Source: Candidatus Woesearchaeota archaeon (GTDB lineage Archaea > Nanobdellota > Nanobdellia > Woesearchaeales > JAHWIC01). Taken from it: 54,289 bases of DNA. Positions 12,001 to 54,289 of the stretch are shown here, piece after piece (positions within the stretch are counted from its first letter, which is position 1; each line of letters starts with the position of its first letter). Both the position numbers and the translations under genes were made by a program. The DNA lies in NCBI GenBank assembly GCA_019322485.1, contig JAHWIK010000001.1:1-54289 (forward strand), read 5' to 3'. The notes under the pieces were generated by a model. The model saw only the letters and a program-made list of their open reading frames with translations, was not told the DNA's origin and made no database searches.

Positions 12001-15000
12001 CTTATAGGCAGTCCAACCTCACCAGTATATGCATTTGAGTAATTGGCATAGAACATTACATCATCCCCTAATCTTTTGCCTTGTGAACCGCCTTGCGGGT
12101 CATTATCATCCCAGACTGAAAGAGACGAGTCCTTGATGGTATTGGTTTCGCTTGAGTTTAATGCAGTTCCTTCTGTATAGCCGTCAGTTGGGGTGATAGA
12201 ACACTTCCATTCTTCACTATATACTGTTTCGTTGTGAGAGATTGAGCTTAAGCCAGACTGGTAGAGTTTTCTGACTTGGTTTGCGTTTAAGCTTCTATTG
12301 AAGATAAGGACTTCGTCGATTGTTCCGTCGAAATACCTGTTATTAAAATCCAACCCGAACCTAACATCTGCATTAGCACCTATAGTTCCTGATATAGTGC
12401 CTGTTGAGCCAGCAGCATCTAATTCTCCATTAATCCAGGTTTTTGGTGCTTCTCCACTCTTCCAGGTTCCAACGACATGGTACCACGCCCCCGTGCCTAG
12501 TGAGTTACCTGATGAATAGCCATATTTATATGTAGAACCGTTGCCAATATAGAACTCGAGCCTATTATTCGCACCATTACCAGAAAAAAAGACCGCATCA
12601 TTAGTACCACTTCTGGACTCTATTATTGGGTCGGCTATATCAAAATCATCAATATTTATCCATGCTGAAACAGTTGTTTCATCCATGCCATAAAATAAGG
12701 CTTCGCTTATTGTGATATAATCATCACCACCATCAAACTCATAAGCACCCCAGCCATCATAGCCGCCAGTTCTGTTAAAGGTTGCATTTATTACCCTTCC
12801 ACTCTTGTTGTGGGGAGAATAATCCCTTGTCCACCCTATGCCTGCTGAGTTGTTCCATTCAAACGGCATATTCAAGATAGTTAATGATTCACCATCTTTG
12901 TACCAGTTGATTATTGGCTTGACTGAATCACCATCTGCGTCAGCTGAATTATTTAGTGAGCAGCCAATATCACTATCTAGGTAAGCATAATCTCCTTTGC
13001 TTGATTCGTATAGTTTTTCAATTTCTGTTGCTGATAAGGAACGGTTCCAGATGGTTACTTCGTCTATTGTGCCGTTGAAATGATTTGGTATCCCTGCGGA
13101 TGGATAATTTCCGATAGTTACATACCCCGTAGTTGTACCTCCAAATGTAGAGGCATCTTCGAAAAACTCACCATTAACATATAAGCTTGCTTTGGAAGTT
13201 GTGGTATCAAAAACAGCTACAAGGTGAGTCCAATCTGTTGTTATGCTATATGAGGAGTCCCAATAGTTTGCTCCAGTCATCAAAGCAGCTTTCCCATTCT
13301 CTAAAAGTAAGGTCCAATCATAACCTCCGTTATCTGGGCATATAATCCATTGTTTGACAGATGGGCTCTCTGTTTTAACCCACGCACTATAAGTTAATGC
13401 AGATGGTGTAGTGAAAGTAAGGCTAGTTTGTACCCTCTCAGTGCTACTATCAAACCAATAACCCTTACCAACCCTGCCTTCATCAGTATGTGTTGCACCA
13501 GTAACAGTTCCATTATTCCTTCCGGTTTCATCATAAGTCCAGGTAGAATTGCCCCATTCGAAGCGCCATTCGCCAACTAAGCCTGAATCAAGCCGGTTAT
13601 GCGCGCCAATGTAAGGTATTGAATGTGTTGGTGCATTAGTTTCATCATTGTATGCATAACCAACATCACTGCCAAACCTAAACTCTAAAGTAACATGCCC
13701 TTCTTTTAGTTTCAGGCTTGATTCATAGCCAGTTTCATTGCAGGAATAATCTTCAACAAACACAGAACTGTTTCCAGAGCTTCTGTTAATCCAGGTATAA
13801 TTAACTAGAGCATCACCGCACCTAAGCTCAATGAAATTGTAGTTGTAATCTGTTCCATTGTAACCAGCAATATCTGTCCAGGTTGCACCATTAATTGGTG
13901 TTATTGTCAGATTAGCTGTTCCAGTTGTGTTAAACATAACAGTCCAGTTGTCGCCAACCTCAGGATAGCTGATGATATTGAGTATATCTATCTCAGTACC
14001 AAATCCTGAGAAGTGCTCAGCAGTAAAGGTTAATCTGCCATTAACAGGGTCATAGCTTATGTCATGGCATATATCACATTCCTTGCCATTAGCAATAATC
14101 TCCTCCCTTGAGCTGTAGAATCCATCTGCGTAATAGATTTTAGGAATTCCTGAGTACCATACATTCTCTAGGGTTATTGTAACAGAATGATTAAAGCTTT
14201 TATCTAAAGCAGATGAATTTGCAGAAACAAATCCAAAGCCAAGCTTTACATTTGTGTTGTAATCTTCTCTGCTTGTATTCACACCATACTCTTCACCAAA
14301 CTCAATCTTTCCATCACTAGTTGCAAGAGTTAGATTTGTGACATTCTCAAAGTCGCTTATTATCCTAAAGTCAGTGCTTCCTTCAGCTCTGTCAAATTCA
14401 GCAGCAAAAGGAACACCTCTTTCATATGTTTCGCTGTAAGCTACTATGCCAGAGTCCAAACTGAATGCATAATCCTCGCCAGGTGTTATATTCAAGGCTT
14501 CTTCCCAACCACCAGAGCATTCCTGCGAATTAGCATCCCAGCCATCGCATCTGTAAAGTTTATCACCTTTTGCAGTTACATTTACAGCTGCATCTGTAAA
14601 GTTTACCTTGGATGAATCTATTGCATATAGCTCAAACAGCTCTCCTGTTTCATTCAGGTCATCTATGTTAATCAGGTCTGTTGTGTTGGAATAAAGCTCT
14701 ACATCCTTGATGACTATTCCCCTAACAGGATGGTTCTTGAGCCTGATGTTTATATCATAGATTCCTTCTTTTATCTTTATGTAATCCTGCTCAGGCTTTA
14801 AATAAGAGGTATCAAGTATGCTGTCAATAAGCTCTACCACAGCATCCTCAAGCTTTTTGAGCTTTGATGTTTTTACATGCGCAGAGAAGATAATCTCTTT
14901 AGGAATGCCAAACTCGTAAACCTCCAAAGCTTCTTTTTTGCCAATAAGAAGCCAGAATGAGGACTTATCCCAATCAAGAATAGTTAGTCTAACTCGTTCA

Positions 15001-16844
15001 TCTGCTGATGATTCTTTTTTGAGGATATCATACTTAACCTTTCCTTTAACATCAATCTTTAATGTTTCATCAGCATTATGGTGGAAAACAACAACTAAAT
15101 CATTGCCATCCTCATACAATTCATCAATGAAAACATCATAGCCTGGGTTATCCCTGAGCTTCTTATAGCTTACATTCGCACTTATGTTTATCTCAACAAG
15201 AGGCATCAGCCTTGTTATTGTGTAATCAAGGTCATCAACATAGATTGTTGAATCACCTATTAATTCAAATCTTAGCCTATAGGAACTTGCATTAAGGCCG
15301 GCTAATACGCAGGTTTCAATGCAGATATCTGAGAAGTCAATGAATTCAATAAATTTAGCATCAAGGCTTAATGTATCTGAATAGTAAATCTCTGAGTATG
15401 GAACCTCTAAGTCATAATCAGCATAGATTACCTGCGCTGTAACAATATTGCTGAGAGTAGCGCCAAACCTTCCATAGCTTAAATCCAAAGGAGCATCCCA
15501 CCCAGCCTGGAATGGAGCAACTCCAACCAAAGCGCAGCAATCAGCACTGCCTTGGCAAACAACAGTTATCTCTGAGTTCTCTTCAGAATAGATTTCCCAT
15601 TTTGTGCAGAGCTTAGAGTAATCCGCATCAAACCCAAATGTTGTATCTTTTACAGTAAAGTCAATTGCTCTTCTTATGTCTTCAATACCATCATCATCAG
15701 CATCAAAGGTTGTGCCAGGATTATATTTTAAATTAATATTTATTTCTTCTAGTGTTTCATTTACTGGTTCTGTAATGGTTTCATTCACAGATGTTTCATT
15801 TATTTGTTCTGTTTCATTTATTGGTGTTGTTTCGTTTAATGTTTGATTTACTGTTTCATTTATTATTGAATTGTTTTCTATTGATTGATTTGTTGTTTCA
15901 TTGATTATTTCTTCAGTTGTTTCATTCAAAACAACATAGCCAGTAATCGCGGGAGGCTCTTCTATCAGCTCAGAACTGTCAAATATTAAGTATTCAGAGC
16001 CTTCATACTCAAGGTAAACTTTAGCACTGCCGCTTACCTTTCCATCCAGCCTAAGAGATCTTAGCTCACCTGGATATGACATATACCACAAGTATGAAGT
16101 AGAGTTAGCTGCTTTGAAATCAATGTGCTCTGTGTAGTTTATTTCCTCACCTGCAGTAATCCTTCCTACAATTGTAGGCCCTGTTATAAAGACATTTGTC
16201 AGCACTAATGCAATCATCAAAACAAACAGCCAGATTGATATGTTTTTTGTTAGCTGATTGCTTTGTATAGGTTTAACCTTTTCAGGCTTCTTTCTAGCAG
16301 CAGGCTTTTCAATAATTTTATGGATATCAAAAACTTCCTTGCGCCATTCCTTAGCTATCTCCCAATCAATATGCGCAACAAGACTGACATAGGTATCTCT
16401 TAGTTTTGGATATACAACTGCTAGTTTTTGTGAGCCAGCAGCTGACCTTGCCTGAGCTAAGAGCTTATTGAACTGAGATACTTTATGGCTGGTAGACCTG
16501 GGTGCATAATAGCCATAAGCTATAATCATTACAGCAAGAACTGCAATCACAAGCAGGAGTGCTGCTGGTGCAAGCAGTTTTGGCAGGCTAAGCCCCAGTG
16601 ATGCAAAGCCAACAATTGAGGTTTCTGTAAACACAAACACAAAAACCAGAACCAGCAGTATTGCTCCAAGGTACAAGCTGCGGTTAGTAATCTCTTCAAG
16701 CTCATAAGACCTAATCAATCTTTCAGTAGTTTCTACATCATGGCCATAAGCAATAAGGGCTTTCTTAATAGAGCTGATACTATAACCTCTTTCTAAACTG
16801 TTCCTTATGTACTTCTTCAGCCCTTTTTCCTGTTGTTTATCCAT
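1..16844 (-). CDS. Giant cell-surface protein, 3'-truncated by the window edge (at least 5614 aa). Order from N- to C-terminus: cytoplasmic N-module, TM helix, NET-sequon linker, Cys-containing region, LamG_3-type modules interleaved with two SBBP beta-propeller arrays, a long parallel beta-helix, then further LamG_3 modules.
   Basis: ATG at 16844-16842 (minus). The six-frame track lists no minus ORF of 60 aa or more in this frame between 1 and 16844, which fits one stop-free frame leaving the window. Three spot translations all fall in the frame p mod 3 = 2. At 13079 down: FNGTIDEVTIWNRSLSATEI. At 8411 down: ADYAYSVAVDSDDNIIVAGFGGNLSEDS. At 6221 down: TQNNTITNNTVNDNQYGIYLYQAHNNTVTSN. N-terminus translated: MDKQQEKGLKKYIRNSLERGYSISSIKKALIAYGHD...LYLGAILLVLVFVFVF (TM). 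The DEV-I-NRSLS-EI-LY motif is confirmed nine times, at about 13050, 12300, 10130, 9330, 3465, 2710, 1870, 1065 and 460. Confidence 0.85.
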   Translation of the reverse strand, partial: MDKQQEKGLKKYIRNSLERGYSISSIKKALIAYGHDVETTERLIRSYELEEITNRSLYLGAILLVLVFVFVFTETSIVGFASLGLSLPKLLAPAALLLVIAVLAVMIIAYGYYAPRSTSHKVSQFNKLLAQARSAAGSQKLAVVYPKLRDTYVSLVAHIDWEIAKEWRKEVFDIHKIIEKPAARKKPEKVKPIQSNQLTKNISIWLFVLMIALVLTNVFITGPTIVGRITAGEEINYTEHIDFKAANSTSYLWYMSYPGELRSLRLDGKVSGSAKVYLEYEGSEYLIFDSSELIEEPPAITGYVVLNETTEEIINETTNQSIENNSIINETVNQTLNETTPINETEQINETSVNETITEPVNETLEEININLKYNPGTTFDADDDGIEDIRRAIDFTVKDTTFGFDADYSKLCTKWEIYSEENSEITVVCQGSADCCALVGVAPFQAGWDAPLDLSYGRFGATLSNIVTAQVIYADYDLEVPYSEIYYSDTLSLDAKFIEFIDFSDICIETCVLAGLNASSYRLRFELIGDSTIYVDDLDYTITRLMPLVEINISANVSYKKLRDNPGYDVFIDELYEDGNDLVVVFHHNADETLKIDVKGKVKYDILKKESSADERVRLTILDWDKSSFWLLIGKKEALEVYEFGIPKEIIFSAHVKTSKLKKLEDAVVELIDSILDTSYLKPEQDYIKIKEGIYDINIRLKNHPVRGIVIKDVELYSNTTDLINIDDLNETGELFELYAIDSSKVNFTDAAVNVTAKGDKLYRCDGWDANSQECSGGWEEALNITPGEDYAFSLDSGIVAYSETYERGVPFAAEFDRAEGSTDFRIISDFENVTNLTLATSDGKIEFGEEYGVNTSREDYNTNVKLGFGFVSANSSALDKSFNHSVTITLENVWYSGIPKIYYADGFYSSREEIIANGKECDICHDISYDPVNGRLTFTAEHFSGFGTEIDILNIISYPEVGDNWTVMFNTTGTANLTITPINGATWTDIAGYNGTDYNYNFIELRCGDALVNYTWINRSSGNSSVFVEDYSCNETGYESSLKLKEGHVTLEFRFGSDVGYAYNDETNAPTHSIPYIGAHNRLDSGLVGEWRFEWGNSTWTYDETGRNNGTVTGATHTDEGRVGKGYWFDSSTERVQTSLTFTTPSALTYSAWVKTESPSVKQWIICPDNGGYDWTLLLENGKAALMTGANYWDSSYSITTDWTHLVAVFDTTTSKASLYVNGEFFEDASTFGGTTTGYVTIGNYPSAGIPNHFNGTIDEVTIWNRSLSATEIEKLYESSKGDYAYLDSDIGCSLNNSADADGDSVKPIINWYKDGESLTILNMPFEWNNSAGIGWTRDYSPHNKSGRVINATFNRTGGYDGWGAYEFDGGDDYITISEALFYGMDETTVSAWINIDDFDIADPIIESRSGTNDAVFFSGNGANNRLEFYIGNGSTYKYGYSSGNSLGTGAWYHVVGTWKSGEAPKTWINGELDAAGSTGTISGTIGANADVRFGLDFNNRYFDGTIDEVLIFNRSLNANQVRKLYQSGLSSISHNETVYSEEWKCSITPTDGYTEGTALNSSETNTIKDSSLSVWDDNDPQGGSQGKRLGDDVMFYANYSNAYTGEVGLPISNGSCTIDFSDGSYNMPEGYHLLWSYNLSDPSIYEYVARSVAVDSNDEIILAGDYQYVAGVVYDWHVEKLYSNGTKQWEFVWNNSDPEGAVGVAVDSNDDIIVAGYGNDLISGSSNYDWHVKKLNSSGDEIWEYNWSGSAADVAYSVAVDSNDDIIVAGVMSISGYDWHVEKLNSSGSKLWGYNWTSSGSVTDDARSVAVDSNDDIIVAGQKSFSDWHVEKLNSSGGKVWGYNWSSPGSAVDIAYGVAVDSNDDIVVVGRGRTTGNIYYWHVEKLDSDGNKLWGYNWSDITQDHDSARSVAIDSNDNIIISGEGQDITGRIYYDLHVEKLDSDGNKLGEYNWTGPTEESYFGYSVALDSKEKVIVGTMSSDTYILKLQQLYKHERTFSESGTHYWNVSCEHDSYESQTASDNITLNTDPTHSTPYIGAHNRIDSGLVGEWRFEYGNSTWTYDETEVNNGTVSGANHTYEGRVGQAYEFDGVDDYIKIADSNPLDISDELTIAAWIKPKNYSSGEQIIATKAGAYGIDVLSTGQIKGIVWHKDVIESTGSITQNDKWYHVAYTFDSSGYGRIYVNGTNTYGEAKTSGIPTTSIVLGIGAYDADLDGTPETYFWNGTIDEVIIWNRSLSATEIEKLYESSKGDYAYLDNDIGCSLNNSADADEDSVKPIIDWYVDDKSLTILNMPFEGWGNATHDADDFAIDYSGYGNDGFVNGSTWNSTGGYDGFGAYEFDGNSTYINISDDDSLDVSTEFTISAWINLRSLVGGTTRQRQGIVQKYYAGAAKRGWEFTFDDTQFCGTDRLELTISKSGTPFSGGLICSNQALQKDTWYHAVARFKGNEHMEIWVNGENHTPTTFALGSLPSHANITDLDVLIGRDYDTSGYFNGTIDEVLIFNRSLSAAQIEKLYQSGLSSISYEETVTNELWKCSITPNDGYTEGTTLNSSGIDIFGKDSGLSLWDDTDPKEGSQTKYTGDYLFFYANYTSQYTGEEDEFISGADCNITFSDGTYSMDEWNKFIWMYNWTGPAGVAGVGVCRAIDVDSSDNMVIGGYGYNLIGSSSYDWHVEKLNSSGDKLWEYNWTASSVDYVYGVAFDSSGNVIAAGSGWQLMGSTSTDWHVEKLNSSGSKLWGYNWTGPAGASGTDYVYSVAVDSDDNIIVAGTGVNLTGDDSADWHVEKLNSSGSLLWDYNWTGPGAGAFGGADYAYSVAVDSDDNIIVAGFGGNLSEDSYRDWHVEKLNSSGSKLWEFNWTGPVFGPLAWGADYAYSVAVDSDDNIIVAGYGTNLTGDSTSDLHVKKLNSSGSQVWEYNWTGPSTDVPQGVDVDSSGDIIVAGYGLNLTGDDSDDWYVQKLNSSGSLVWEYNWTSPGDTGTQEYAYAVAVDSDDNPIVVGFGTNLSGSDTYYDWQVEKLNKNLYQTYAYERTFSDPGTQEWNVTCSHDDYEAQTSSDDAQIEVGDCGATITGDTTLGKNLSQTGSGTCITIGADDITLDCAGHNITGDQSSTSYGIDNNGKDNVTVKNCNVNNFTQGIYWRGGANDGLLINNTAYDNVETGIYLLSSNNNNLTSNTVTFNTQDGILVRQGSNHNILTNNTANNNSRYGIYVWSSSNTTLTSNTANNNTDYGIYIYFQADNNTLTSNTANDNKRGIYVYLGSNNILTSNNANNNTNYGILLSQVSKYNYLASNTANGNYYGIYAGAESNNNTITLNNASNSGYAGILLSSSHNNTVTFNNANKNNRDGFSIYSNSNYNTFTSNNANNNTQQGFYFSSSSNNVLTNNTARNNTQNGFYLTTNAKNNNFTSNAANDNADYGIYLQSNCNYNTITNNTVNGNERGFYIVSSSNNTFTHNTVNNNTWYGFYFATSADSNLISNNTINYNYYGIYGNPIRYSNITNNTVIDNTNYGIRISSTNARYNLVSGNTVNDNQYGIYIYGSTTQNNTITNNTVNDNQYGIYLYQAHNNTVTSNVVKGSSLRGFWIREAKYNTFTSNTANNSPTGRGMYFSNNAHYNTLTSNNANNNQYGIYLDTASNNTITSNTANNNSQTGIYLSSNTPGNHIINNSASYGGTGIYISSSPSNVVANNTARNNTNYGIGTGTSAHYTNYTGNTLIYNREGIYTYSWGNIFHLNNVSFNTEEGFYLGGYDNIITNNTFIYNTDYGVQLYGGGRTIIANNTIQFSSIGLGLSQGTQNNSVSYNEITKNLDEGITLSNSNRNNITNNNISENAANGRGINGYGDLNLIKENTINSQYDGIYLYSTSDNNTIIFNDISYNGLNGITITSGSYANISSNTLISDRNGINSASNCNGFTIHGNNITGNSLNHGISLFGSKDNTVTSNYVEGKSHGIDFNAVFNSTFRYNTISNNSYGIYIQYGGYNNIISNNVSNSTERGAHVFQSIKSNFTSNSFNNNTNYGMYFSSSSVNNTINDNIISYNGNTGIYVWAGCEYNIFTNNTFENNDDYGIRFVGSEDSTVYNNKFDTNGINAWENANNTWNATYNCSIGPNIVGGSCIGGNWWSDYLGSDTDGDFVGDTLLPYNASGNLLIGDWLPLTSEVLSIWDDTDAEAGSNVVFTGDDVKFYANFTDAANDSISGANCIANFADSTGNSMSYSSGTYEYTRSFSSGGTYSWNVTCSKSGYINKTKTDTINISSTPTHYNPYIGGHNKYESDRLYEFRFEWGNSTWVYADYIEPDGDVENYTVYGATHTDGGRVGKAYEFDGVDDYMSTNQDPDYPGRTSITIAAWVNHNALSGTADVIFDEGVRAKLMINSSYVSGWIEDSMAYQLSAEAPASNVVSGEWTHIAFTWESGQQGAIFINGVNLTTGGNAITNTLGVSIGALPRIGSSGSHYFNGTIDELIVWNRSLSASEISDLYDSSRGDYAYDEQDIGCGGNDLYDGDGDPIKAVYNWYKDDTSITVLNMPFEAWRGNSTHDNDNWTEDYSGYSNDGTVTGAVFNGSAGHDGKGAYEFDGIDDYIETSENITITGSQDRTISLWAKTSSGNNQRPLGWGAGPSGNRSDYDVIFESGTTIFIGIDGGNRKFSFSYNDSKWHHYVFSQDGPNTTNINCYVDGVSLAESSINNQVVNTTSTPSRIGRGYDFTGYFNGSIDEVLIFNRTLNTNEIRNLYRFGLSSLSHNETNKHERWSCALTPNDGIIGGTTLFSNDLVLNQEPTHSIPYIGAHNDITDGLVGEWRFEWGNSSWTYDETGVNNGTVSSATKTYAGRVGQAYEFDGGDDWINVGTSPLYGAGAIEMSVSAWIYADPGNFDGDTQLFIDTSTGDPQPYDGFYIGVDDRNIGPAPINGIQFSIGTTDGGGYELLYSDDNVIPSKGWYHVVGTYGGDSGKIYVNGVESSNVYVDETGDFDPANANMYIGATNGGTYDFNGTIDEVVIWNRSLSATEIADLYNSSRGAYEVYTSNDLGCSINNSDDNDDDSVKTIINWYVDDKSITVLNMPFESLNSKHTDINNSDMVGAWYMEGNADDRTVYGNDGTVYGGPPPYLTDGKVGQGYEFENGSIHIGEDIFELDTLTVSLWVKMNEVDKTQSFIANTETGTTGWHISVISTNNIVFSFRDSSTFQSSQTGTGFAEKDKWYHLVGVAGNGEIKLYVNGEVASTTDTYDGTGLYSSTEDLIIGAKTQDAGYPQVPPELQANATIDEVIIWNRSLSATEIQALYEEGLDSEEEAKDYSGYENWGSVQGATYDETGGHDGFGAYEFDGVDDRIETADFSWTTSESFTMATWINPASTSNVGSILAKRAQEQSYSLNTDDGNDLYFYYTDYGVQLISLSDSNRLTAGNWYFVTVTYDGSVARMYTDGNLVATDSDVSGTFSPGGENLYVGYGGYDPEDSEVNAYFNGTIDEVLIFNRSLNSNEVKKLYQNGLSSLSSNETITHESWKCSVTPNDGYTDGETYNSSETTLTNSPPTTPSVRSPANDSFYTINSVNVSCSGSTDVDGDALAYYLWGGTSPSSMTYLGNDSYTWTTTDGTTYYWVCAAYDEEDFSSNTSIWQFSENFDPTQ
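4500..7500 (-). repeat. Region of ~66-nt periodic repeats encoding a right-handed parallel beta-helix (PbH1 / NosD-like coils, roughly 40-45 turns) within the giant protein.
   Basis: Translation gives a reiterated NNTITNNTVNDNxYGIYLxxSxNNTxTSN pattern. The out-of-frame 166-aa T/Q/M-rich ORF at 6539..7039 is a shadow of this periodicity. Confidence 0.7.
7800..9000 (-). repeat. SBBP-type beta-propeller repeat array 2 (about eight units, several nearly identical at the DNA level) inside the giant gene.
   Basis: Units beginning ccagttatactcccacaa at about 7939, 8085, 8259, 8438, 8606, 8773 and 8945. Long identical stretches, for example atcagaatcaacagctactgaataggcatagtctgctcc near 8197 and 8375. 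Translation: DWHVEKLNSSGSKLWEFNWTGP...ADYAYSVAVDSDDNIIVAG. Confidence 0.75.
10880..11950 (-). repeat. SBBP-type beta-propeller repeat array 1 (about seven units of ~150-170 nt) inside the giant gene.
   Basis: Recurrent DNA units of the form ccaattatacccccata...gaattcaacttctccacatgcca. The protein units read like WHVEKLNSSGxxLWxYNW...YxVAVDSNDDIIVAG. Confidence 0.7.
15735..15930 (-). repeat. Low-complexity stretch of GTTTCATT-like units on the plus strand, encoding Asn-Glu-Thr and Asn-x-Ser/Thr sequon repeats of the giant protein (NETTEEIINETTNQSIENNSIINETVNQTLNETTPINETEQINETSVNETITEPVNETLEE).
   Basis: Direct reading of the repeated tttcatt units and their translation in the giant ORF frame. 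Confidence 0.8.
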
Positions 16845-17292
16845 GCTTGCCTCTTTTAAACTTGGCCCTATGGTAGACTGTCCAGATGTTACGTTCATCT
16901 CGGTTGAGTAGAATGCCTATCTCATGGAAGCTGAGCTTTTTATGGTCCTTAAGCCATTCAACAATGGCTTCAAAACCACTCAAGCTTCTGTCCTTTAGGA
17001 CAGAGATAGGCACACTCAACCGGGGTTTTGGAGCAGAAATTCTCTTAGTAATCTCGCGCTTCTTCCTTACTCTTGAATAAATGGTCCAGATATTGCGCTC
17101 ATCGCGATTAAGAATTAAACCAATCTGGCGGTAGTTGAGTCCTTTTTCTTCTTTCAAATACTCTACAACAGCTTCAAGAATTGCAAGATTAGTATCAAAG
17201 AAAACAGTATTTGGCAGAAGGAGAGCAGTATGATTAGAAGCTTTTTTAATAACATCACTCTTTTTAAGTTCTCCAAAACCCCTTTTAATCAA
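16837..17292 (-). CDS. Small DNA-binding protein with two tandem HTH-like repeats (sigma-70 region 4-like). Its 3' end overlaps the giant gene start by 8 nt.
   Basis: 151 aa. Internal duplication: LEAVVEYLKEEKGLNYRQIGLILNRDERNIWTIYSRVRKK and FEAIVEWLKDHKKLSFHEIGILLNRDERNIWTVYHRAKFK. Stop at 16839-16837, while the giant gene ATG sits at 16844-16842. Confidence 0.55.
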   Translation of the reverse strand: MIKRGFGELKKSDVIKKASNHTALLLPNTVFFDTNLAILEAVVEYLKEEKGLNYRQIGLILNRDERNIWTIYSRVRKKREITKRISAPKPRLSVPISVLKDRSLSGFEAIVEWLKDHKKLSFHEIGILLNRDERNIWTVYHRAKFKRGKHG

Positions 17293-50690: not shown

Positions 50691-51331
50691 CTATTATGTT
50701 TCTTTATTTTTTTGTATTCAAAATAAGAATAGAAAATAGGATAGAAAGCAGCAAACAGAACAGGAACAAGGAAAATCCATATTGCATATTTTTGCAGGAA
50801 TAAGCCGGATAAGGCAATTACTCCAGCTGCCTTGAACAGTTTTGCAGCAAGCTTATGCGTTTTGTTCCATACCTCATCACTGCTTAAGGTCCATGGTGTT
50901 TTGATTCCAATAAACCAGTTTCTTTTGCAGTTCTCGACGAGGATTCCAATGTAGTAAATCAATATCCCAAAAGCAGGAATAATCATCACAGTCATGTTAA
51001 ACCTGTAGTCAAGGTTCCAGAATATTGTCAGAAGATAAACATAGAACATAAACGCGATAAACAAGGCGATAAACCAGTCATAGTATTTTCTGAACTTTTC
51101 GACATTCTTTTTCAATGGGTCTATTCTTGGAAGGAAAATAAAAAGCAGGAAACAAAAGGTAACAACGATTGGCATCAGGAATAAGCCCCAGAACCTTGAC
51201 ATATAGCCGTCAACTTCCCCCTGGCTGTTCCAGTGAGATGCCATTCTGTCTGGCATCTGGGGGTAGAGGTAAATGCTAACAGCAAAAGATATTATGATTA
51301 TTGCTAAGGCAAAGATTGTTGTTTTTTTCAT
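50678..51331 (-). CDS. SdpI/YhfL-family membrane protein (DUF1648 plus an SdpI-like region).
   Basis: MPDRMASHWNSQGEVDGYMSRFWGLFLMP and NCKRNWFIGIKTPWTLSSDEVWNKTHKLAAKLF motifs. Four to six TM helices. Confidence 0.65.
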   Translation of the reverse strand: MKKTTIFALAIIIISFAVSIYLYPQMPDRMASHWNSQGEVDGYMSRFWGLFLMPIVVTFCFLLFIFLPRIDPLKKNVEKFRKYYDWFIALFIAFMFYVYLLTIFWNLDYRFNMTVMIIPAFGILIYYIGILVENCKRNWFIGIKTPWTLSSDEVWNKTHKLAAKLFKAAGVIALSGLFLQKYAIWIFLVPVLFAAFYPIFYSYFEYKKIKKHNSGTK

Positions 51332-51373
51332 ATTTGATTATTTTATTTTAAGGTTTAATAAAGTTTCTTTTTT

Positions 51374-52441
51374 CTATTCGCGCGCTTCTAAGGTCTCTTT
51401 TTTTCCGTATAAATCAAATAATATATTTAAAATATCTCCCTTACTTATGGGGGCTATTCCTCTGTATTCCTCCAACTGCCTCTGGCCTACCCTGGATTCG
51501 AGGGGAGTTGCTGAGCGATTTTTGACAAAATTCCAATGGGTTTTATAGTTGCCACATTGGCTTGCAAGCCAGGCCATACTAACATGTGGCCTGCCAGTCT
51601 CTAGTTTTTCCCTAAAAATGCCTTCCAGTTCTGTGTAGACTGCCCTTAATTCCATGAGATGATGCAAATAATCCAAACTAAAGGTGTCGGGACTTATGCT
51701 CTGGTAACAAAGGCGGTCATTACCTAAGTTAACCCCTTCAGACCAATCTTCGCAGTGCTTTAGTTCATGTCTTATTAAGCTTCTAAAATCAGCATCATTC
51801 TTTATACCTGATGAAGGTGAAAAAACCCTTCTTCTAACTGCTATATATTCTGACATTCCCTCTCCGAATAAACCCACTGTTGCTGGAAGGACTGTTGCAT
51901 ATGCACCTTCAGCTCTTTCATATGTTAAATGGTATCCCTTAACTGCTTCGCTAACTCTTGCTTGAATCACTTTCTCATCACTCAATTTGGCAGAAATTAC
52001 TTCTCTTAGAACCCTTTCTAATGTTTCATCAGTTGGTTCACATAGAAGTCCCCTCAACAGGCCTCTTTGTTTTGCATCAGCGACTTCTGGTGAGCTGTAC
52101 TCTTGGAGAAATCTTCCGATTAATTCGGGGTTATTGCAAGCTTGTGCAAAGGTTAATCCTGGATCAGGACCAGATGCTTGTGACTCTAGAGCTGAGCCAT
52201 TGCTCTGGGCGGATATATGTACATCACTCTGTTTTCGAGAATTATATGCAAACCTAAAAACAGCATAGCTTCCAAGCAAAAGAACTCCAGCAGCTGCTCC
52301 AATTGGAATTATGTAAGTCCACATAGATGGCTTTGATACTTTTTCTTCCTCTTTCTTTTGGGTTCTAGCTTGGTTATTGAGAGCATTGCCTATTGGTCCT
52401 ACTGGTCTTTTTTTCTTTCTTTTGCCCTTTGTTCTTGCCAT
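51374..52441 (-). CDS. Hypothetical membrane-anchored protein with an HExxH motif (possible zincin-like metallopeptidase). Locally GC-richer.
   Basis: Basic N-terminus, one TM helix, and IRHELKHCEDW. 355 aa. Confidence 0.4.
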   Translation of the reverse strand: MARTKGKRKKKRPVGPIGNALNNQARTQKKEEEKVSKPSMWTYIIPIGAAAGVLLLGSYAVFRFAYNSRKQSDVHISAQSNGSALESQASGPDPGLTFAQACNNPELIGRFLQEYSSPEVADAKQRGLLRGLLCEPTDETLERVLREVISAKLSDEKVIQARVSEAVKGYHLTYERAEGAYATVLPATVGLFGEGMSEYIAVRRRVFSPSSGIKNDADFRSLIRHELKHCEDWSEGVNLGNDRLCYQSISPDTFSLDYLHHLMELRAVYTELEGIFREKLETGRPHVSMAWLASQCGNYKTHWNFVKNRSATPLESRVGQRQLEEYRGIAPISKGDILNILFDLYGKKETLEARE

Positions 52442-52728
52442 TATTGGGTCTAGAAACAGGAGGTATTTATAAAACTTTGCTAGATAGTTACTATGTAGTG
52501 GTTAATTGTCAAAAGATTTATACAATCTCTTTTATTCAATCCGGAGTACCAATGTTTCAGTCCCAAGACATTAATATTCTCGTGTCCTGTTGCCCTTAAT
52601 GCTTGAATCTGCATTGTATCTGCAAGGCTTTATTTTGCTATTTCTTGCAAACTTTATTCCGATAGTTGTCGTCGAGTTTCCTTGCATGTATATAGGAAGA
52701 GACTAAGTACTATTTAAAGTCTGCTCTT

Positions 52729-52798
52729 CCAATCGGAAGTTCAATAAGACCCTAAAATAGCACTAGAAACAGCAGTTTTGTTCCAATCGGAAGTTCAG
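52729..52798. promoter_or_regulatory. Two exact copies of the 17-mer TTCCAATCGGAAGTTCA (TTCC-N4-GGAA half-palindrome). A third variant lies at ~53991-54007. Candidate operator sites.
   Basis: Exact 17-mers at 52729 and 52782. ATTATCGGAAGTTCAACAAGACCTAAGAT at 53991 matches ATCGGAAGTTCAATAAGACCCTAAAAT at 52733. Confidence 0.4.
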
Positions 52799-52944
52799 CA
52801 CTAAAAAATGTCCAAAAAAGTTACATTATTTTTGACAAAAAAAGTTACAAGAAATTGTCAAATGTTCTTTGTGTAGAAATAGTTCAATTCAATATTACTC
52901 GGGGCAGGCTTTATTTAAGAATTTACTTTTTAATGAGGGACTGT

Positions 52945-53790
52945 TTAATGATCAAATCTAGATACTGGCTTATCTTCTTCTTTTATATGTGGAAGAAATT
53001 TTAAGTATATTTCAGGGGAATATCCTCTTTCTAATTCTAGTCTTGCAAAAAAATCACCAATCTTAAAATTGTCCGCTCTTCTTTTTCTGTATGTCTCTCC
53101 ACCAGAAAAGTAATCTCTCATCTGTGCTTTTTGCTCAGGAGTCATGTCAAATCCCCATCCCTTGCCTAAGAGAGGATCTTTATAACTCATAACATTAGGA
53201 ATCTCTCCTACATAATCCTCAAGACCATCATTTGTATAAGCGTGAGTATGCCATAATCCTGCCAAATGTCCGATTTCATGGACAAGAGTACTTCCTCTTT
53301 CAGTTTTTTCATATTCCTTTCCAAATGCCACCATAAACCTATCTGACAAGAATATTACTCTATCAGAAACCATTCCTAATGCAGTATTTTTTCTTTTGTT
53401 GAAAAAATTAAGCCAATCTTCAATGCCTCGATTTCTAAATTCCTCATCATGAATAAACTGAGTGAAAAGGGAATATCTTGCATAATCAGCTGCAGGCACC
53501 TCCATGATAGCTACTTTTGTTCTTACATCAAAGTCAGGCATTGCTTTCTCTAATTCACTTCTGCTGCAGTATTCGACTCCTGCATCTACCCCTACCTCTT
53601 CCCTTAGGTAATCCATAGCATGTTCAAATACTTCAGGTCTCCATCTAGACCTTTTCATTCGAGCAACATAGAATGTAGTTTCATGTTTAGTTTCTGCAAT
53701 CGCTTCTAAAGGAGCTAAAGCTGCTCCTGCTCCAGCTACCAACAATCTCTTCAAGAATACTCTTCTGCCTTCATCAACTACTTCAGTCAT
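52945..53790 (-). CDS. Tat-secreted metzincin-type zinc metallopeptidase.
   Basis: Twin-arginine signal GRRVFLKRLLVAGAGAALA. HEIGHLAGLWH (HExxHxxGxxH) and a downstream Met-turn-like NVMSY. 281 aa. Confidence 0.7.
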   Translation of the reverse strand: MTEVVDEGRRVFLKRLLVAGAGAALAPLEAIAETKHETTFYVARMKRSRWRPEVFEHAMDYLREEVGVDAGVEYCSRSELEKAMPDFDVRTKVAIMEVPAADYARYSLFTQFIHDEEFRNRGIEDWLNFFNKRKNTALGMVSDRVIFLSDRFMVAFGKEYEKTERGSTLVHEIGHLAGLWHTHAYTNDGLEDYVGEIPNVMSYKDPLLGKGWGFDMTPEQKAQMRDYFSGGETYRKRRADNFKIGDFFARLELERGYSPEIYLKFLPHIKEEDKPVSRFDH

Positions 53791-53926
53791 TCTTCACCTT
53801 CTTAATCAATTCACTTGCAGCTATTTCAAAGAAATGAGATTTATTTCTATAAGTCTTAGACCTCAGCAAATCCTGTATTCTGAATATAGTATCCTCATCT
53901 ATAGTTATGCTTAATTTATGCCTCAT
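53783..53926 (-). CDS. Ribbon-helix-helix (CopG-like) small DNA-binding protein, overlapping the metzincin start by 8 nt.
   Basis: MRHKLSITIDEDTIFRIQDLLRSKTYRNKSHFFEIAASELIKKVKND (47 aa). Below the ORF-track cutoff. Confidence 0.5.
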   Translation of the reverse strand: MRHKLSITIDEDTIFRIQDLLRSKTYRNKSHFFEIAASELIKKVKND

Positions 53927-54260
53927 AATATAGCATATTATACTACTACTATTTAAATCTTTCGATTTGTAACTACCTACTAGTAGTAATACATTATCGG
54001 AAGTTCAACAAGACCTAAGATTATCAAGAACTTTTCTAGAATTCAAGCTTTCTCTCGTCGACAATCATATCAAAATCGGAATATAATGGTCACTATGTTC
54101 CTATATGATTTATTTTTAAATCAGCTTAAATAGTATATAAAGGGTGTTGCGATTTTTATTCCGATAACTACGGAGCTTTATTCCAATCAGAATATTTTCA
54201 TCAAGAACTTATTTAAATAAGAATTTCAAGAATTAATTAAAAAACAATAAAGGTGGTATT

Positions 54261-54289
54261 ATGACAAAGGAAAGATATTTTGTGACATC
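54261..54289 (+). CDS. 5' end of a plus-strand gene (partial; MTKERYFVT...).
   Basis: ATG preceded by aaaggtggt. Only 9 codons visible. Confidence 0.2.

What the first reader, a model, noticed from the sequence alone, without database searches (positions are those of the whole stretch)
51374..54210. RHH regulator plus Tat-secreted metzincin cassette flanked by direct repeats; a second HExxH protein next door shares the repeat motif
A 47-aa CopG-like RHH gene overlaps the start of a twin-arginine-signal metzincin (HEIGHLAGLWH plus Met-turn). The pair is bracketed by ~27-nt direct repeats (ATCGGAAGTTCAAYAAGACCYTAARAT at 52733 and 53993). Two exact TTCCAATCGGAAGTTCA 17-mers also lie upstream of the neighbouring HExxH-containing membrane protein. 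Either the RHH protein autoregulates and co-regulates both putative proteases through these sites, or the direct repeats are attachment-site remnants of an acquired cassette. The cassette looks GC-richer than the housekeeping neighbours.
Basis: partly seen in the sequence, partly recalled or inferred. Interest (0 to 1): 0.6.

Follow-up and report, generated by a model that had tools for sequence, protein, structure and literature searches.

The report
Shared repeats belong to conserved intergenic element
The repeats around this small regulator-plus-protease gene pair are real, but they are copies of a motif from a 317-base non-coding DNA element that other Woesearchaeota carry beside unrelated genes, so they are neither private switches for these genes nor scars of an inserted cassette.

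Summary
The window is a whole 54-kb contig of a Woesearchaeota genome assembled from a metagenome. The sequence observations hold. A 47-aa RHH-like gene overlaps by 8 nt a 281-aa gene carrying RRxFLK, HEIGHLAGLWH and NVMSY. Two exact 17-mers lie at 52727 and 52781, and a 24/27 direct repeat lies at 52732 and 53996. The GC claim fails: the pair is GC-poorer than its neighbours. The decisive result is that both 17-mers and the left repeat lie inside a ~317-bp non-coding element (52543-52859). This element aligns almost without gaps, at about 54-63% identity, with two other Woesearchaeota-type genomes. Motif spacing is identical there, the flanking genes are unrelated, and no RHH, metzincin or HExxH homologue is present. 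Loci encoding homologues of the two proteins lack the motif. The element shows no coding periodicity, no Rfam hit, weak folding and no covariation. I read it as a DNA-level array of protein-binding sites around a TATA box. The right repeat is a partial local copy (TATA plus motif) that forms the RHH promoter region. The element's function is unknown. An origin-like (mini-ORB) reading is not excluded. The metzincin-like family has four known members. The 355-aa neighbour belongs to an uncharacterised HExxH family.

The parts
51374..52441 (-). 355-aa membrane-anchored HExxH protein (KY360_00235). It has a basic N-terminus, one TM helix and a zincin-like domain.
52466..52473 (-). TATA box (TTTATAAA) of the 355-aa gene, 25 nt upstream of its ATG
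   Evidence: Sequence inspection. Assignment as a promoter is inferred.
52543..52859 (.). Conserved non-coding element (~317 bp) shared with L029/L083 and L077
   Evidence: nhmmer and BLAST hits and near gap-free alignments. It is the only nucleotide-level match between those loci and the window. Mismatches show no 3-nt periodicity. No Rfam or tRNA hit. Consensus folding is weak and without covariation.
52657..52663 (-). Inverted heptad TTCCGAT inside the conserved block TTTATTCCGATA
   Evidence: The block is identical in L029 and lies the same 61 nt before the first 12-mer.
52709..52718 (.). Conserved TATA-like box ACTATTTAAA, 8 nt from the first 17-mer. Read on the minus strand it is TTTAAATA.
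   Evidence: Conserved as CTAT(T/A)TAAA or CTATAAAAA in all three genomes. The same 10-mer recurs at 53948.
52727..52743 (+). 17-mer copy 1 (TTCCAATCGGAAGTTCA). Its 12-nt core TTCCAATCGGAA is a near-palindrome.
   Evidence: TCCAATCGGAAGTTCA is invariant in all three genomes.
52732..52758 (+). Left copy of the 27-nt direct repeat
52781..52797 (+). 17-mer copy 2, 54 nt after copy 1. ATCGGAAGTTC and the 54-nt spacing are conserved in L029 and L077.
52803..52859 (.). A/T-rich tract ending the element, with repeats (A)6-7GTTACA. Read on the minus strand these are oligo-T runs that probably terminate the metzincin operon.
   Evidence: Repeat D12. ACAAAAAAAGTTACAAGAAA is shared with L077. The terminator role is inferred.
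52945..53790 (-). 281-aa metzincin-like protein with a twin-arginine-type N-terminus (KY360_00240)
   Evidence: Only sub-threshold hits to M10, M12, M43, M66, LegP and archaemetzincin. PDB profile hits are nearly all metzincins at E 0.17-1.8. The AF2 model is unusable, pLDDT 39.
53783..53926 (-). 47-aa RHH-like protein, first gene of the operon
   Evidence: RHH_1 E=0.041 and NikR N-terminus E=0.054. No PDB sequence hit.
53948..53963 (-). BRE/TATA of the RHH operon. On the minus strand it reads CGAAAGA-TTTAAATA, with 23 nt to the ATG, so the mRNA is leaderless. It contains the same ACTATTTAAA as the element.
   Evidence: Inferred from archaeal promoter geometry.
53935..53997 (.). Inverted repeat (ATATTATACTACTACTA / TAGTAGTAATACATTAT) bracketing the RHH TATA box. 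This is an alternative candidate RHH operator.
   Evidence: Repeat I10. TACTACTA is enriched locally. The operator role is speculative.
53996..54021 (+). Right copy of the direct repeat. It lies 70-95 nt upstream of the RHH start codon.
54055..54192 (.). Further motif copies in region B: ATCGGAATATAA (54075, +), TTTTATTCCGATA (54154-54166, heptad on the minus strand) and the degenerate 12-mer TTCCAATCAGAA (54181)
   Evidence: (D5, D6, I25).

Best explanation
The repeats are reiterated copies of a short protein-binding-type motif: the heptad ATCGGAA and the near-palindromic 12-mer TTCCAATCGGAA.

The motif belongs to an autonomous, lineage-conserved ~317-bp intergenic DNA element of Woesearchaeota (52543-52859). 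In order, the element carries conserved left-hand blocks, an inverted heptad, a TATA-like box, two direct copies of the motif 54 bp apart (about five helical turns), and an A/T-rich tract.

The copy upstream of the RHH gene is a local partial paralogue of the element's core. It has the same ACTATTTAAA box and the same ATCGGAAGTTCAAnAAGACC, with 24 extra nt between them. Read on the minus strand, its TATA box is the promoter of the RHH-metzincin operon. That operon is leaderless and translationally coupled.

So the 'flanking direct repeats' reflect duplication or reuse of an element or promoter module. They are not att sites.

The motif is most likely bound by a factor conserved across these archaea, not by this orphan RHH alone. 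That factor could couple expression of the operon, and perhaps of the 355-aa gene through a distal promoter, to whatever the element senses.

Shown: the conservation, the decoupling from the genes, the non-coding and unstructured character, and the promoter geometry.

Inferred: protein binding, the identity of the binder, and the regulatory outcome.

The operon itself most likely encodes an autoregulating RHH repressor and an exported zinc endopeptidase of a new, very small metzincin-like family.
For: The element is conserved.
- BLAST E is 4e-21 to L029/L083 and 2e-11 to L077.
- The alignment is nearly gap-free.
- TCCAATCGGAAGTTCA, ATCGGAAGTTC and TTATTCC are invariant.
- The 61-nt and 54-nt spacings are identical in L029.
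- The element is the only nucleotide-level match between those loci and the window.

The flanking genes are unrelated.
- In L029/L083 they are a 316-aa protein of unknown function and an HTH-CBS protein. In L077 the neighbour is a TM-MarR protein.
- tblastn finds no RHH, metzincin or 355-aa homologue in those loci.
- Loci of protein homologues have no motif cluster.

The element is not coding.
- Mismatches are spread evenly over the three codon phases.
- The small ORFs differ in length and lack a start codon in L077.

The element is not a recognisable or structured RNA.
- No Rfam hit even at E<=10 and no tRNA.
- The consensus fold is only -20 to -21 kcal/mol over 320 nt, with a covariation term near zero. 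Sub-regions give -9 and -5 kcal/mol.
- Single-sequence z-scores are -0.85 (plus strand) and -2.46 (minus strand).

The heptad is strongly enriched in the two intergenic regions, in both orientations.

ACTATTTAAA occurs at 52709 and 53948. In both places its TATA box lies 24 nt from a minus-strand ATG.

The genome-wide 17-mer scan gave 66 single hits, about my chance estimate (~70 for a 17-mer in 596 Gb, both strands). The one archaeal hit was a homologous element.
Against: - Only three independent copies of the element are known, so both conservation and the absence of covariation rest on little data.
- No binding protein has been identified.
- The minus strand folds somewhat better than shuffled sequence (z -2.46). 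A poorly structured RNA or a long 5' leader is not excluded.
- The other contigs of this genome could not be searched. The assembly is not in the genome collection, so copy number per genome is unknown.
- The RHH could still be one binder of the motif.
- In L029, L083 and L207 the assemblies break at or just beyond the element. This hints at repetition or strain variability that the model does not explain.
Confidence: 0.55

Rival explanations
1. RHH operator model. The RHH dimer-of-dimers binds the ATCGGAA / TTCCAATCGGAA sites in both intergenic regions. In this way it autoregulates its operon and co-regulates the 355-aa HExxH gene.
For: - RHH regulators typically bind arrays of short direct or inverted repeats near their own genes (general knowledge of CopG, Arc, MetJ and omega).
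- Seven motif copies flank the operon, and the 12-mer is near-palindromic.
- One copy lies upstream of the RHH promoter.
Against: - The same sites, with the same spacing, occur in genomes where no RHH, metzincin or 355-aa homologue is nearby.
- Homologues of the metzincin lack both the motif and an RHH. L001 instead has a downstream MraZ/AbrB-like gene.
- The site upstream of the RHH gene is at -70 to -95 and does not overlap the core promoter. The 17-mers are 286-356 nt from the 355-aa start, beyond its own TATA box.
- A different inverted repeat (TACTACTA/TAGTAGTA) actually brackets the RHH TATA box.
Confidence: 0.12
2. Attachment-site remnants. The 27-nt direct repeats are attL and attR of an integrated 1.26-kb RHH-metzincin cassette.
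For: - A significant direct repeat brackets the two genes.
- The metzincin family is extremely rare and patchy, with 4 members among 5.8 billion proteins.
- The gene has the lowest GC3 in the contig.
Against: - The 100 nt just inside the left repeat (second 17-mer and A/T tract) is colinear with the element in genomes lacking the cassette. The repeat is therefore not the insertion boundary.
- No integrase or recombinase gene is present.
- The codon-usage distance is within the range of neighbouring genes (ratio 1.79 against up to 1.76), and the GC-richer claim is false.
- Additional motif copies in both orientations fit an array, not a pair of att cores.
Confidence: 0.05
3. Replication-origin reading. 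The element and the region-B cluster are ORB/mini-ORB-like Orc1/Cdc6 binding sites of a chromosomal origin. The two clusters flank a gene, as ORB clusters flank cdc6 in Thermococcales.
For: - The motif core TTCCAATCGGAAGT resembles the mini-ORB TTCCAGTGGAACT (PMC1904270) and the euryarchaeal ORB consensus GTTCCAGTGGAAAC (PMC1868953). TTCC and GAA are the perfectly conserved positions of ORBs in Pyrococcus (PMC1904270).
- Copies are multiple, in both orientations, and in two clusters about 1.3 kb apart.
- The element is conserved across genomes, and one full copy was found in each contig held.
- It ends in an A/T-rich tract.
Against: - The dyad is one nucleotide longer than in ORBs, and no conserved G-string follows it.
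- The A/T tract is no richer than ordinary intergenic DNA in this contig.
- No orc1/cdc6 turned up in Pfam scans of a subset of the window ORFs or of a few genes of the related loci. The right flank is missing.
- The two strong copies are direct repeats, not inverted repeats around an unwinding element.
Confidence: 0.12
4. Non-coding RNA gene or long conserved 5' leader. It would be transcribed from the internal TATA box on the minus strand, towards the 355-aa gene here and the 316-aa gene in L029.
For: - A conserved TATA-like box lies at a fixed position.
- In both the window and L029 a minus-strand gene starts 80-100 nt beyond the element's left edge.
- The minus-strand fold has z -2.46.
- TTCCGAT and ATCGGAA are complementary.
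Against: - No Rfam family matches.
- The consensus structure is very weak and shows no net covariation.
- In L077 the same direction runs into the 3' end of a convergent gene.
- The putatively paired blocks are invariant, so they carry no information about pairing.
Confidence: 0.12
5. Miniature mobile element (MITE-like or REP-like) that has landed in different intergenic regions.
For: - The genomic contexts differ in the three genomes.
- Assemblies break at or next to the element in L029, L083 and L207.
- A partial second copy lies in region B.
Against: - No terminal inverted repeats are conserved. The 27-nt inverted repeat I1 of the window is not shared.
- No target-site duplications are seen.
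- There is only one full copy in 54 kb, and one in each of the other contigs.
- Divergence between copies tracks genome divergence. Copies are not near-identical.
Confidence: 0.04

Closest known systems
Metzincin zinc endopeptidases (clan MA(M): matrixins M10, astacins M12A, adamalysins M12B, serralysins M10B)
   Same: The extended zinc-binding motif HExxHxxGxxH (HEIGHLAGLWH) is present. A conserved Met follows 20 residues later in N-V/I-M-S-Y, which resembles the serralysin/astacin SxMSY/SxMHY Met-turn with its Tyr. The best, though weak, HMM and PDB hits are almost exclusively metzincins.
   Different: No curated family model reaches its cutoff. The family has only four known members, all from small uncultured-organism contigs. 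One member has Ser in place of the motif Gly. The fold could not be confirmed because AF2 gave pLDDT 39.
CopG/Arc/MetJ ribbon-helix-helix autoregulators at the head of small operons
   Same: The protein is a 47-aa product with a beta-alpha-alpha sequence pattern. It is the first gene of the operon and overlaps the next gene. Weak RHH_1 and NikR N-terminal matches were found.
   Different: The HMM scores are sub-threshold. The operator is unknown. The conspicuous repeats nearby are not specific to this gene.
Archaeal origin recognition boxes (ORB / mini-ORB)
   Same: TTCC...GGAA dyad core. Multiple copies in both orientations, in two clusters flanking a gene. Conserved between related genomes (PMC1904270, PMC1868953).
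   Different: The dyad spacer is one nucleotide longer. There is no G-string, no exceptional unwinding element and no adjacent orc1/cdc6 in the sequence available.
Archaeal promoter-proximal transcription-factor sites (for example the TGM of TrmBL1/Tgr, or the NrpR GGAA-N6-TTCC operators)
   Same: A short palindromic site sits immediately next to a TATA box. A second copy lies an integral number of helical turns away.
   Different: The sequence (TTCC-N4-GGAA) matches no operator I know of. The binding factor is unknown. The module is conserved independently of any particular downstream gene.
HExxH-motif zincin-like domains of uncharacterised function (PDB 3cmn; the HExxH domain of ChlH, PDB 8s5f)

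Membership tests
Metzincin clan (281-aa protein) | Extended zinc-binding motif HExxHxxGxxH | tested here: met
   HEIGHLAGLWH at residues 171-181. H171, E172, H175 and H181 are invariant in the 4-member alignment. The Gly is Ser in one member.
Metzincin clan (281-aa protein) | Conserved Met-turn downstream of the third His | tested here: met
   N199 and M201 are invariant within N-V/I-M (NVMSY), 20 residues after H181. The evidence is at motif level only.
Metzincin clan (281-aa protein) | Significant match to a curated metzincin family model, or a metzincin fold | tested here: inconclusive
   The best Pfam hits are M43, Reprolysin, M10 and Astacin at E 0.017-0.04, all below cutoff. NCBIfam LegP gives E 6e-4 but only 19.5 bits against a cutoff of 300. 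PDB profile hits are ADAMTS-5, BMP1 and myroilysin at E 0.17-0.8. The AF2 model has pLDDT 39 and is unusable.
Twin-arginine (Tat) signal peptide | S/T-R-R-x-F-L-K motif, hydrophobic region and A-x-A cleavage site | tested here: inconclusive
   GRRVFLKRLLVAGAGAALAPLEAIA-E fits the consensus by eye. TIGR01409 scores 11.7 bits against a cutoff of 16.7. One homologue (P0002) also has RR plus a hydrophobic stretch, and another (P0003) has none.
Twin-arginine (Tat) signal peptide | TatA/TatC translocase encoded in the same genome | not testable with these tools
   Only this one contig of the genome is available, and no tatA/tatC gene was looked for.
Ribbon-helix-helix (CopG/Arc/MetJ) regulator (47-aa protein) | Match to the RHH family model or fold | tested here: inconclusive
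   RHH_1 gives E 0.041 and 14.3 bits against a cutoff of 20.5, spanning residues 5-42. The NikR N-terminus gives E 0.054. There is no PDB sequence hit.
Private operator of the RHH | Sites overlap the regulator's own core promoter and co-occur with the regulator in relatives | tested here: not met
   The nearest motif copy is 70-95 nt upstream of the leaderless start. The motif occurs without the RHH in L029/L083 and L077, and homologous protease loci lack it.
Integrated cassette with att direct repeats | The repeats mark the exact boundaries of inserted DNA. A recombinase is present. Composition is atypical. | tested here: not met
   The sequence inside the left repeat is colinear with the element in cassette-free genomes. 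No recombinase ORF is present. The GC is not higher, and codon distance is within the range of neighbouring genes.
Archaeal ORB / oriC | Match to the mini-ORB core (GTTCCAGTGGAAAC) | tested here: inconclusive
   TTCCAATCGGAAGT keeps TTCC and GGAA but has one extra base in the dyad. The comparison is with sequences quoted in PMC1904270 and PMC1868953.
Archaeal ORB / oriC | G-string after the dyad, and inverted ORBs around an A/T-rich unwinding element | tested here: not met
   No conserved G-run follows the motif in the three genomes. The two strong copies are direct repeats. A/T richness is at most 0.83 in 40 bp, against 0.95 elsewhere in the contig.
Archaeal ORB / oriC | Adjacency to orc1/cdc6, and one or a few copies per chromosome | not testable with these tools
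   No Orc1/Cdc6 domain appeared in the ORFs scanned. The contig ends 28 nt into the next gene, and the rest of the genome is unavailable.
Structured non-coding RNA (any Rfam family) | Covariance-model match, or a conserved secondary structure with covariation | tested here: not met
   There is no Rfam match at gathering score or at E<=10. RNAalifold gives -20 to -21 kcal/mol over 320 nt with a covariation term of -0.4 to +0.4. Only three sequences were available.
Zincin-like metallopeptidase (355-aa neighbour) | Conserved HExxH plus a third ligand, on a zincin fold | tested here: inconclusive

The most novel reading that the evidence does not exclude
The ~317-bp element, together with its satellite motif cluster 1.3 kb away, is a previously undescribed functional DNA locus of Woesearchaeales. 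The most interesting possibility is a chromosomal replication origin, or another Orc1/Cdc6-bound site, built from a variant mini-ORB (TTCCAATCGGAAGT). In that case the RHH-metzincin operon is lodged between two ORB-like clusters and uses one of them as its promoter region.
Probability: 0.12. Interest if true: 0.6.

Novelty: new member of a known kind. Interest (0 to 1): 0.4.

Why it matters
The gene pair itself is modest. It is a small transcription factor coupled to an exported zinc protease of a very rare, undescribed metzincin-like family, in an archaeon with a reduced genome that probably depends on a host.

The more useful result is the conserved intergenic element. Non-coding DNA alignable at about 54-63% identity, almost without gaps, between genomes whose GC content differs by 10 points is under strong constraint. 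The element is absent from Rfam. If it marks a replication origin, a segregation site or a hub for a lineage-specific regulator, it would give a sequence handle on chromosome biology or regulation in a group with no cultivated model.

The case also shows that 'direct repeats flanking a cassette' can be copies of a conserved cis-element and not recombination scars.

Tried and rejected
1. GC or codon evidence for a foreign cassette. The pair is GC-poorer, and its codon distance is not an outlier.

2. Genome-wide frequency of the 17-mer. 66 single hits in 596 Gb is about my chance estimate (~70). This genome is not in the collection. The only informative hit was L029.

3. Metagenome scan for two motif copies 33-53 nt apart. 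Of 52 hits, almost all were unrelated tandem repeats. Only L083 and L077 are homologous.

4. Palindromes ATCGGAAGT(T)CGAACTTCCGAT in L081, L088 and L089. They flank an IS200-like/RAYT transposase in an unrelated, GC-richer organism. These are REP-like elements, and the match is coincidental.

5. Viral contigs (3 scans), phage genomes and plasmids. Nothing homologous was found.

6. Small ORFs inside the element, on either strand. Lengths and stop codons differ, L077 lacks a start codon or is frameshifted, changed codons are non-synonymous, and mismatches show no periodicity.

7. tRNA, Rfam, C/D-box or CRISPR readings. No support.

8. Structure of the metzincin. The alignment is too shallow and pLDDT was 39, so no fold search was run on it.

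9. PADLOC and PHROGs for all three proteins. Nothing.

10. Extending the contig through identical proteins. The only other record (L207) is a 1.7-kb piece that ends between the two 17-mers.

11. The bacterial-type promoter/terminator scan is not applicable to an archaeon.

Full report
**Source and genes**

The window is an entire 54,289-bp contig of a 'Candidatus Woesearchaeota archaeon' genome assembled from a metagenome. The two larger proteins are KY360_00240 and KY360_00235. The contig carries ordinary chromosomal genes: ribosomal proteins S6e and L10e, aIF2-gamma, class I LysRS and lysine-biosynthesis enzymes.

At its right end, all on the minus strand, lie three genes:
- a 355-aa gene (51374-52441);
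- a 281-aa gene (52945-53790);
- a 47-aa gene (53783-53926), which overlaps the 281-aa gene by 8 nt (ATGACTGA).

Two long intergenic regions surround the gene pair. Region A is 52442-52944 (503 bp). Region B is 53927-54261 (335 bp). A plus-strand ORF starts at 54262 and is cut off by the contig end.

**Checking the observation**

The two exact 17-mers (52727, 52781) and the direct repeat (52732-52758 versus 53996-54021, 24 of 27 with one indel) are real. They are well beyond chance.

The repeats are part of something larger. The heptad ATCGGAA/TTCCGAT occurs six times in the 838 bp of regions A and B, against five times in the remaining 53.4 kb. It comes in two flavours: ATCGGAAGTTCA (three copies) and ATCGGAATA (three copies). 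A degenerate TTCCAATCAGAA lies at 54181. TTCCAATCGGAA is one mismatch away from the perfect palindrome TTCCGATCGGAA.

The claim of higher GC is wrong. The RHH gene has GC 0.31. The metzincin gene has GC 0.37 and the lowest GC3 on the contig, against a contig average of about 0.39. Its codon-usage distance is at the top of the normal range but is not an outlier.

**The proteins**

*The 281-aa protein.*
- It has GRRVFLK, a hydrophobic stretch and AIA at its N-terminus, then HEIGHLAGLWH and NVMSY.
- A search of 5.8 billion proteins, first with the sequence and then with a profile, found only two relatives (P0002, P0003). A third lies in tandem with P0003.
- The zinc-ligand histidines, the catalytic Glu and the Met are invariant in this family.
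- All matches to curated metzincin models are below threshold, but they are almost exclusively metzincins.
- The structure prediction failed with pLDDT 39.
- I therefore call the protein metzincin-like at motif level.

*The 47-aa protein.* It is RHH-like at sub-threshold level (RHH_1 E 0.041).

*Neighbours of the metzincin homologues.* In L001 the homologue is followed by a small MraZ/AbrB-type DNA-binding protein that overlaps it by one base, and there is no RHH. L002 carries two tandem paralogues.

*The 355-aa protein.*
- It had no relatives in the word-indexed search. A full HMMER scan found 96 clusters.
- HExxH, D232, G236 and the E264-x-R-A block are at least 90% conserved.
- It is zincin-like, but protease activity is not established.

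**The turning point**

A scan of one genome per species for the 17-mer gave 66 single hits, about my chance estimate (~70). One hit was in another Woesearchaeota assembly (L029). Around it, about 270-320 nt aligns with region A almost without gaps.

A metagenome scan for two motif copies found the same sequence on a 30.8-kb contig (L083). It also found a third, more divergent homologue (L077).

A profile search places the element at window 52543-52859. It is the only nucleotide-level similarity between those loci and the 54-kb window.

Conserved blocks sit at fixed spacing:
- AGTCCCAAGACATTAA (shared with L029 only);
- TCTGCATTnTATCTG (about 12 of 14 positions in L077);
- TTTATTCCGATA (two mismatches in L077);
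- a TATA-like CTAT(T/A)TAAA;
- CTGCTCTTCCAATCGGAAGTTCA (three mismatches in L077);
- ATCGGAAGTTC again, 54 nt later, in all three genomes;
- an A/T tract, ACAAAAAAAGTTACAAGAAA, shared with L077 only.

The flanking genes are unrelated in the three genomes. No RHH, metzincin or 355-aa homologue is found in those loci. Loci of homologues of the two proteins have no motif cluster.

**What the element is not**

- *Not coding.* Mismatches are evenly distributed over the three codon phases. The small ORFs on either strand differ in length. They acquire stop codons or lose the start codon in other genomes.
- *Not a known RNA.* Rfam gives nothing even at E<=10, and there is no tRNA.
- *Not convincingly a structured RNA.* Consensus folds of either strand reach only about -20 kcal/mol over 320 nt, with no net covariation. 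Candidate sub-transcripts fold even worse. Single-sequence z-scores are -0.85 and -2.46.
- *Not a recognisable mobile element.* No conserved terminal repeats or target duplications are seen.
- *The look-alike palindromes are unrelated.* The similar palindromes in L088 belong to a REP/RAYT system of an unrelated bacterium.

**What it most likely is**

The evidence points to DNA-level protein-binding sites, for four reasons:
- invariant short blocks sit at fixed distances;
- the 12-mer is near-palindromic and abuts a TATA box;
- a second copy lies five helical turns away;
- an inverted heptad lies seven turns away on the other side.

Region B contains a partial paralogue of the core. It has the same ACTATTTAAA (53948), then ATCGGAAGTTCAAcAAGACC 24 nt further away than in the element, plus further heptads in both orientations.

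Read on the minus strand, that box is CGAAAGA-TTTAAATA with 23 nt to the RHH start codon. This is a typical archaeal BRE/TATA for a leaderless mRNA. In the element, the same box lies the same 24 nt from a non-conserved ATG.

So the 'flanking direct repeat' is a duplicated or reused element and promoter module. It is not an att core, because the 100 nt inside the left repeat is still colinear with the element in cassette-free genomes.

The RHH may well autoregulate. A better-placed candidate operator is the TACTACTA/TAGTAGTA inverted repeat that brackets its TATA box.

**Comparison with known systems**

The motif core resembles archaeal mini-ORBs: TTCCAGTGGAACT (PMC1904270) and the consensus GTTCCAGTGGAAAC-AAA----GGGGG (PMC1868953). 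Two clusters flanking a gene recall Thermococcales oriC.

Several origin features are missing:
- the dyad is one base longer;
- there is no G-string;
- there is no outstanding A/T-rich unwinding element;
- no orc1/cdc6 turned up in the subset of ORFs I scanned.

I keep this as the most novel reading that is not excluded, at about 12%.

Assemblies break at or just beyond the element in L029, L083 and L207. This is unexplained.

**Verdict**

What is there:
- an orphan RHH plus metzincin-like operon;
- an uncharacterised HExxH membrane protein;
- a conserved intergenic element of unknown function that is not in Rfam and supplies the repeats.

Interest is moderate. The next step is a profile search of complete Woesearchaeales genomes.

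Noticed in passing
window 3-16916 (-): One uninterrupted reading frame of at least 5,638 codons runs off the left end of the contig. It is a giant protein gene that the ORF lister omits because it is open-ended. Its codon usage differs strongly from the other genes (ratio 6.6).
   Followed up: partly
L029 2968-2988; L083 position 1; L207 (= window 51055-52779): Three independent assemblies end at or within the conserved element. L207 stops just before the second 17-mer. L029 and L083 stop about 60-80 nt after the second motif copy. This suggests a repeat or a strain-variable junction there.
   Followed up: partly
L001 4113-4481: The closest metzincin homologue (P0002) is followed, with a 1-nt overlap, by a 122-aa MraZ/AbrB-type DNA-binding protein (Pfam MraZ E 1e-5) and not preceded by an RHH. 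Two of the three loci therefore pair this protease family with a small 'antitoxin-type' DNA binder.
   Followed up: partly
L002 63-854 and 857-1837: Two tandem paralogues of the metzincin-like family lie side by side. Their zinc motifs are HEMCHMAGLTH and HEIGHQASLLH.
   Followed up: no
window 51374-52441 (-): The 355-aa protein defines an uncharacterised family of about 96 clusters at 50% identity, with a nearly invariant HExxH..D...G and E-x-R-A. Its best structural neighbour is the HExxH domain of an alpha-ketoglutarate-dependent oxygenase (8s5f), so the family may not be a protease at all. Neighbours of homologues include a Peptidase_M64/Big_7 protein (L201) and glycoside hydrolases (L203).
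   Followed up: partly
window 53935-53951 / 53981-53997: A 17-nt inverted repeat (82% complementary), containing TACTACTA/TAGTAGTA, brackets the BRE/TATA of the RHH operon. It is a candidate operator distinct from the ATCGGAA motif.
   Followed up: no
L088 9040-9520 (also L081, L089): Repeated palindromes CAACAATCGGAAGT(T)CGAACTTCCGATTGTTG flank an IS200-like/RAYT transposase gene in a GC-richer, probably bacterial contig. They share the 9-11-mer with the window's motif by coincidence.
   Followed up: yes
L074, L079, L082, L084, L095-L097, L103: Several metagenome contigs carry a tandem unit of about 53 nt (successive copies 50-53 nt apart) of the form GCTTCCGAAGAGAATTCCTTAATATCGGAAGTTCTCG..GGTG, downstream of a Lys/Glu-rich coding region. 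Their nature is unknown, and they are unrelated to the element by alignment.
   Followed up: no
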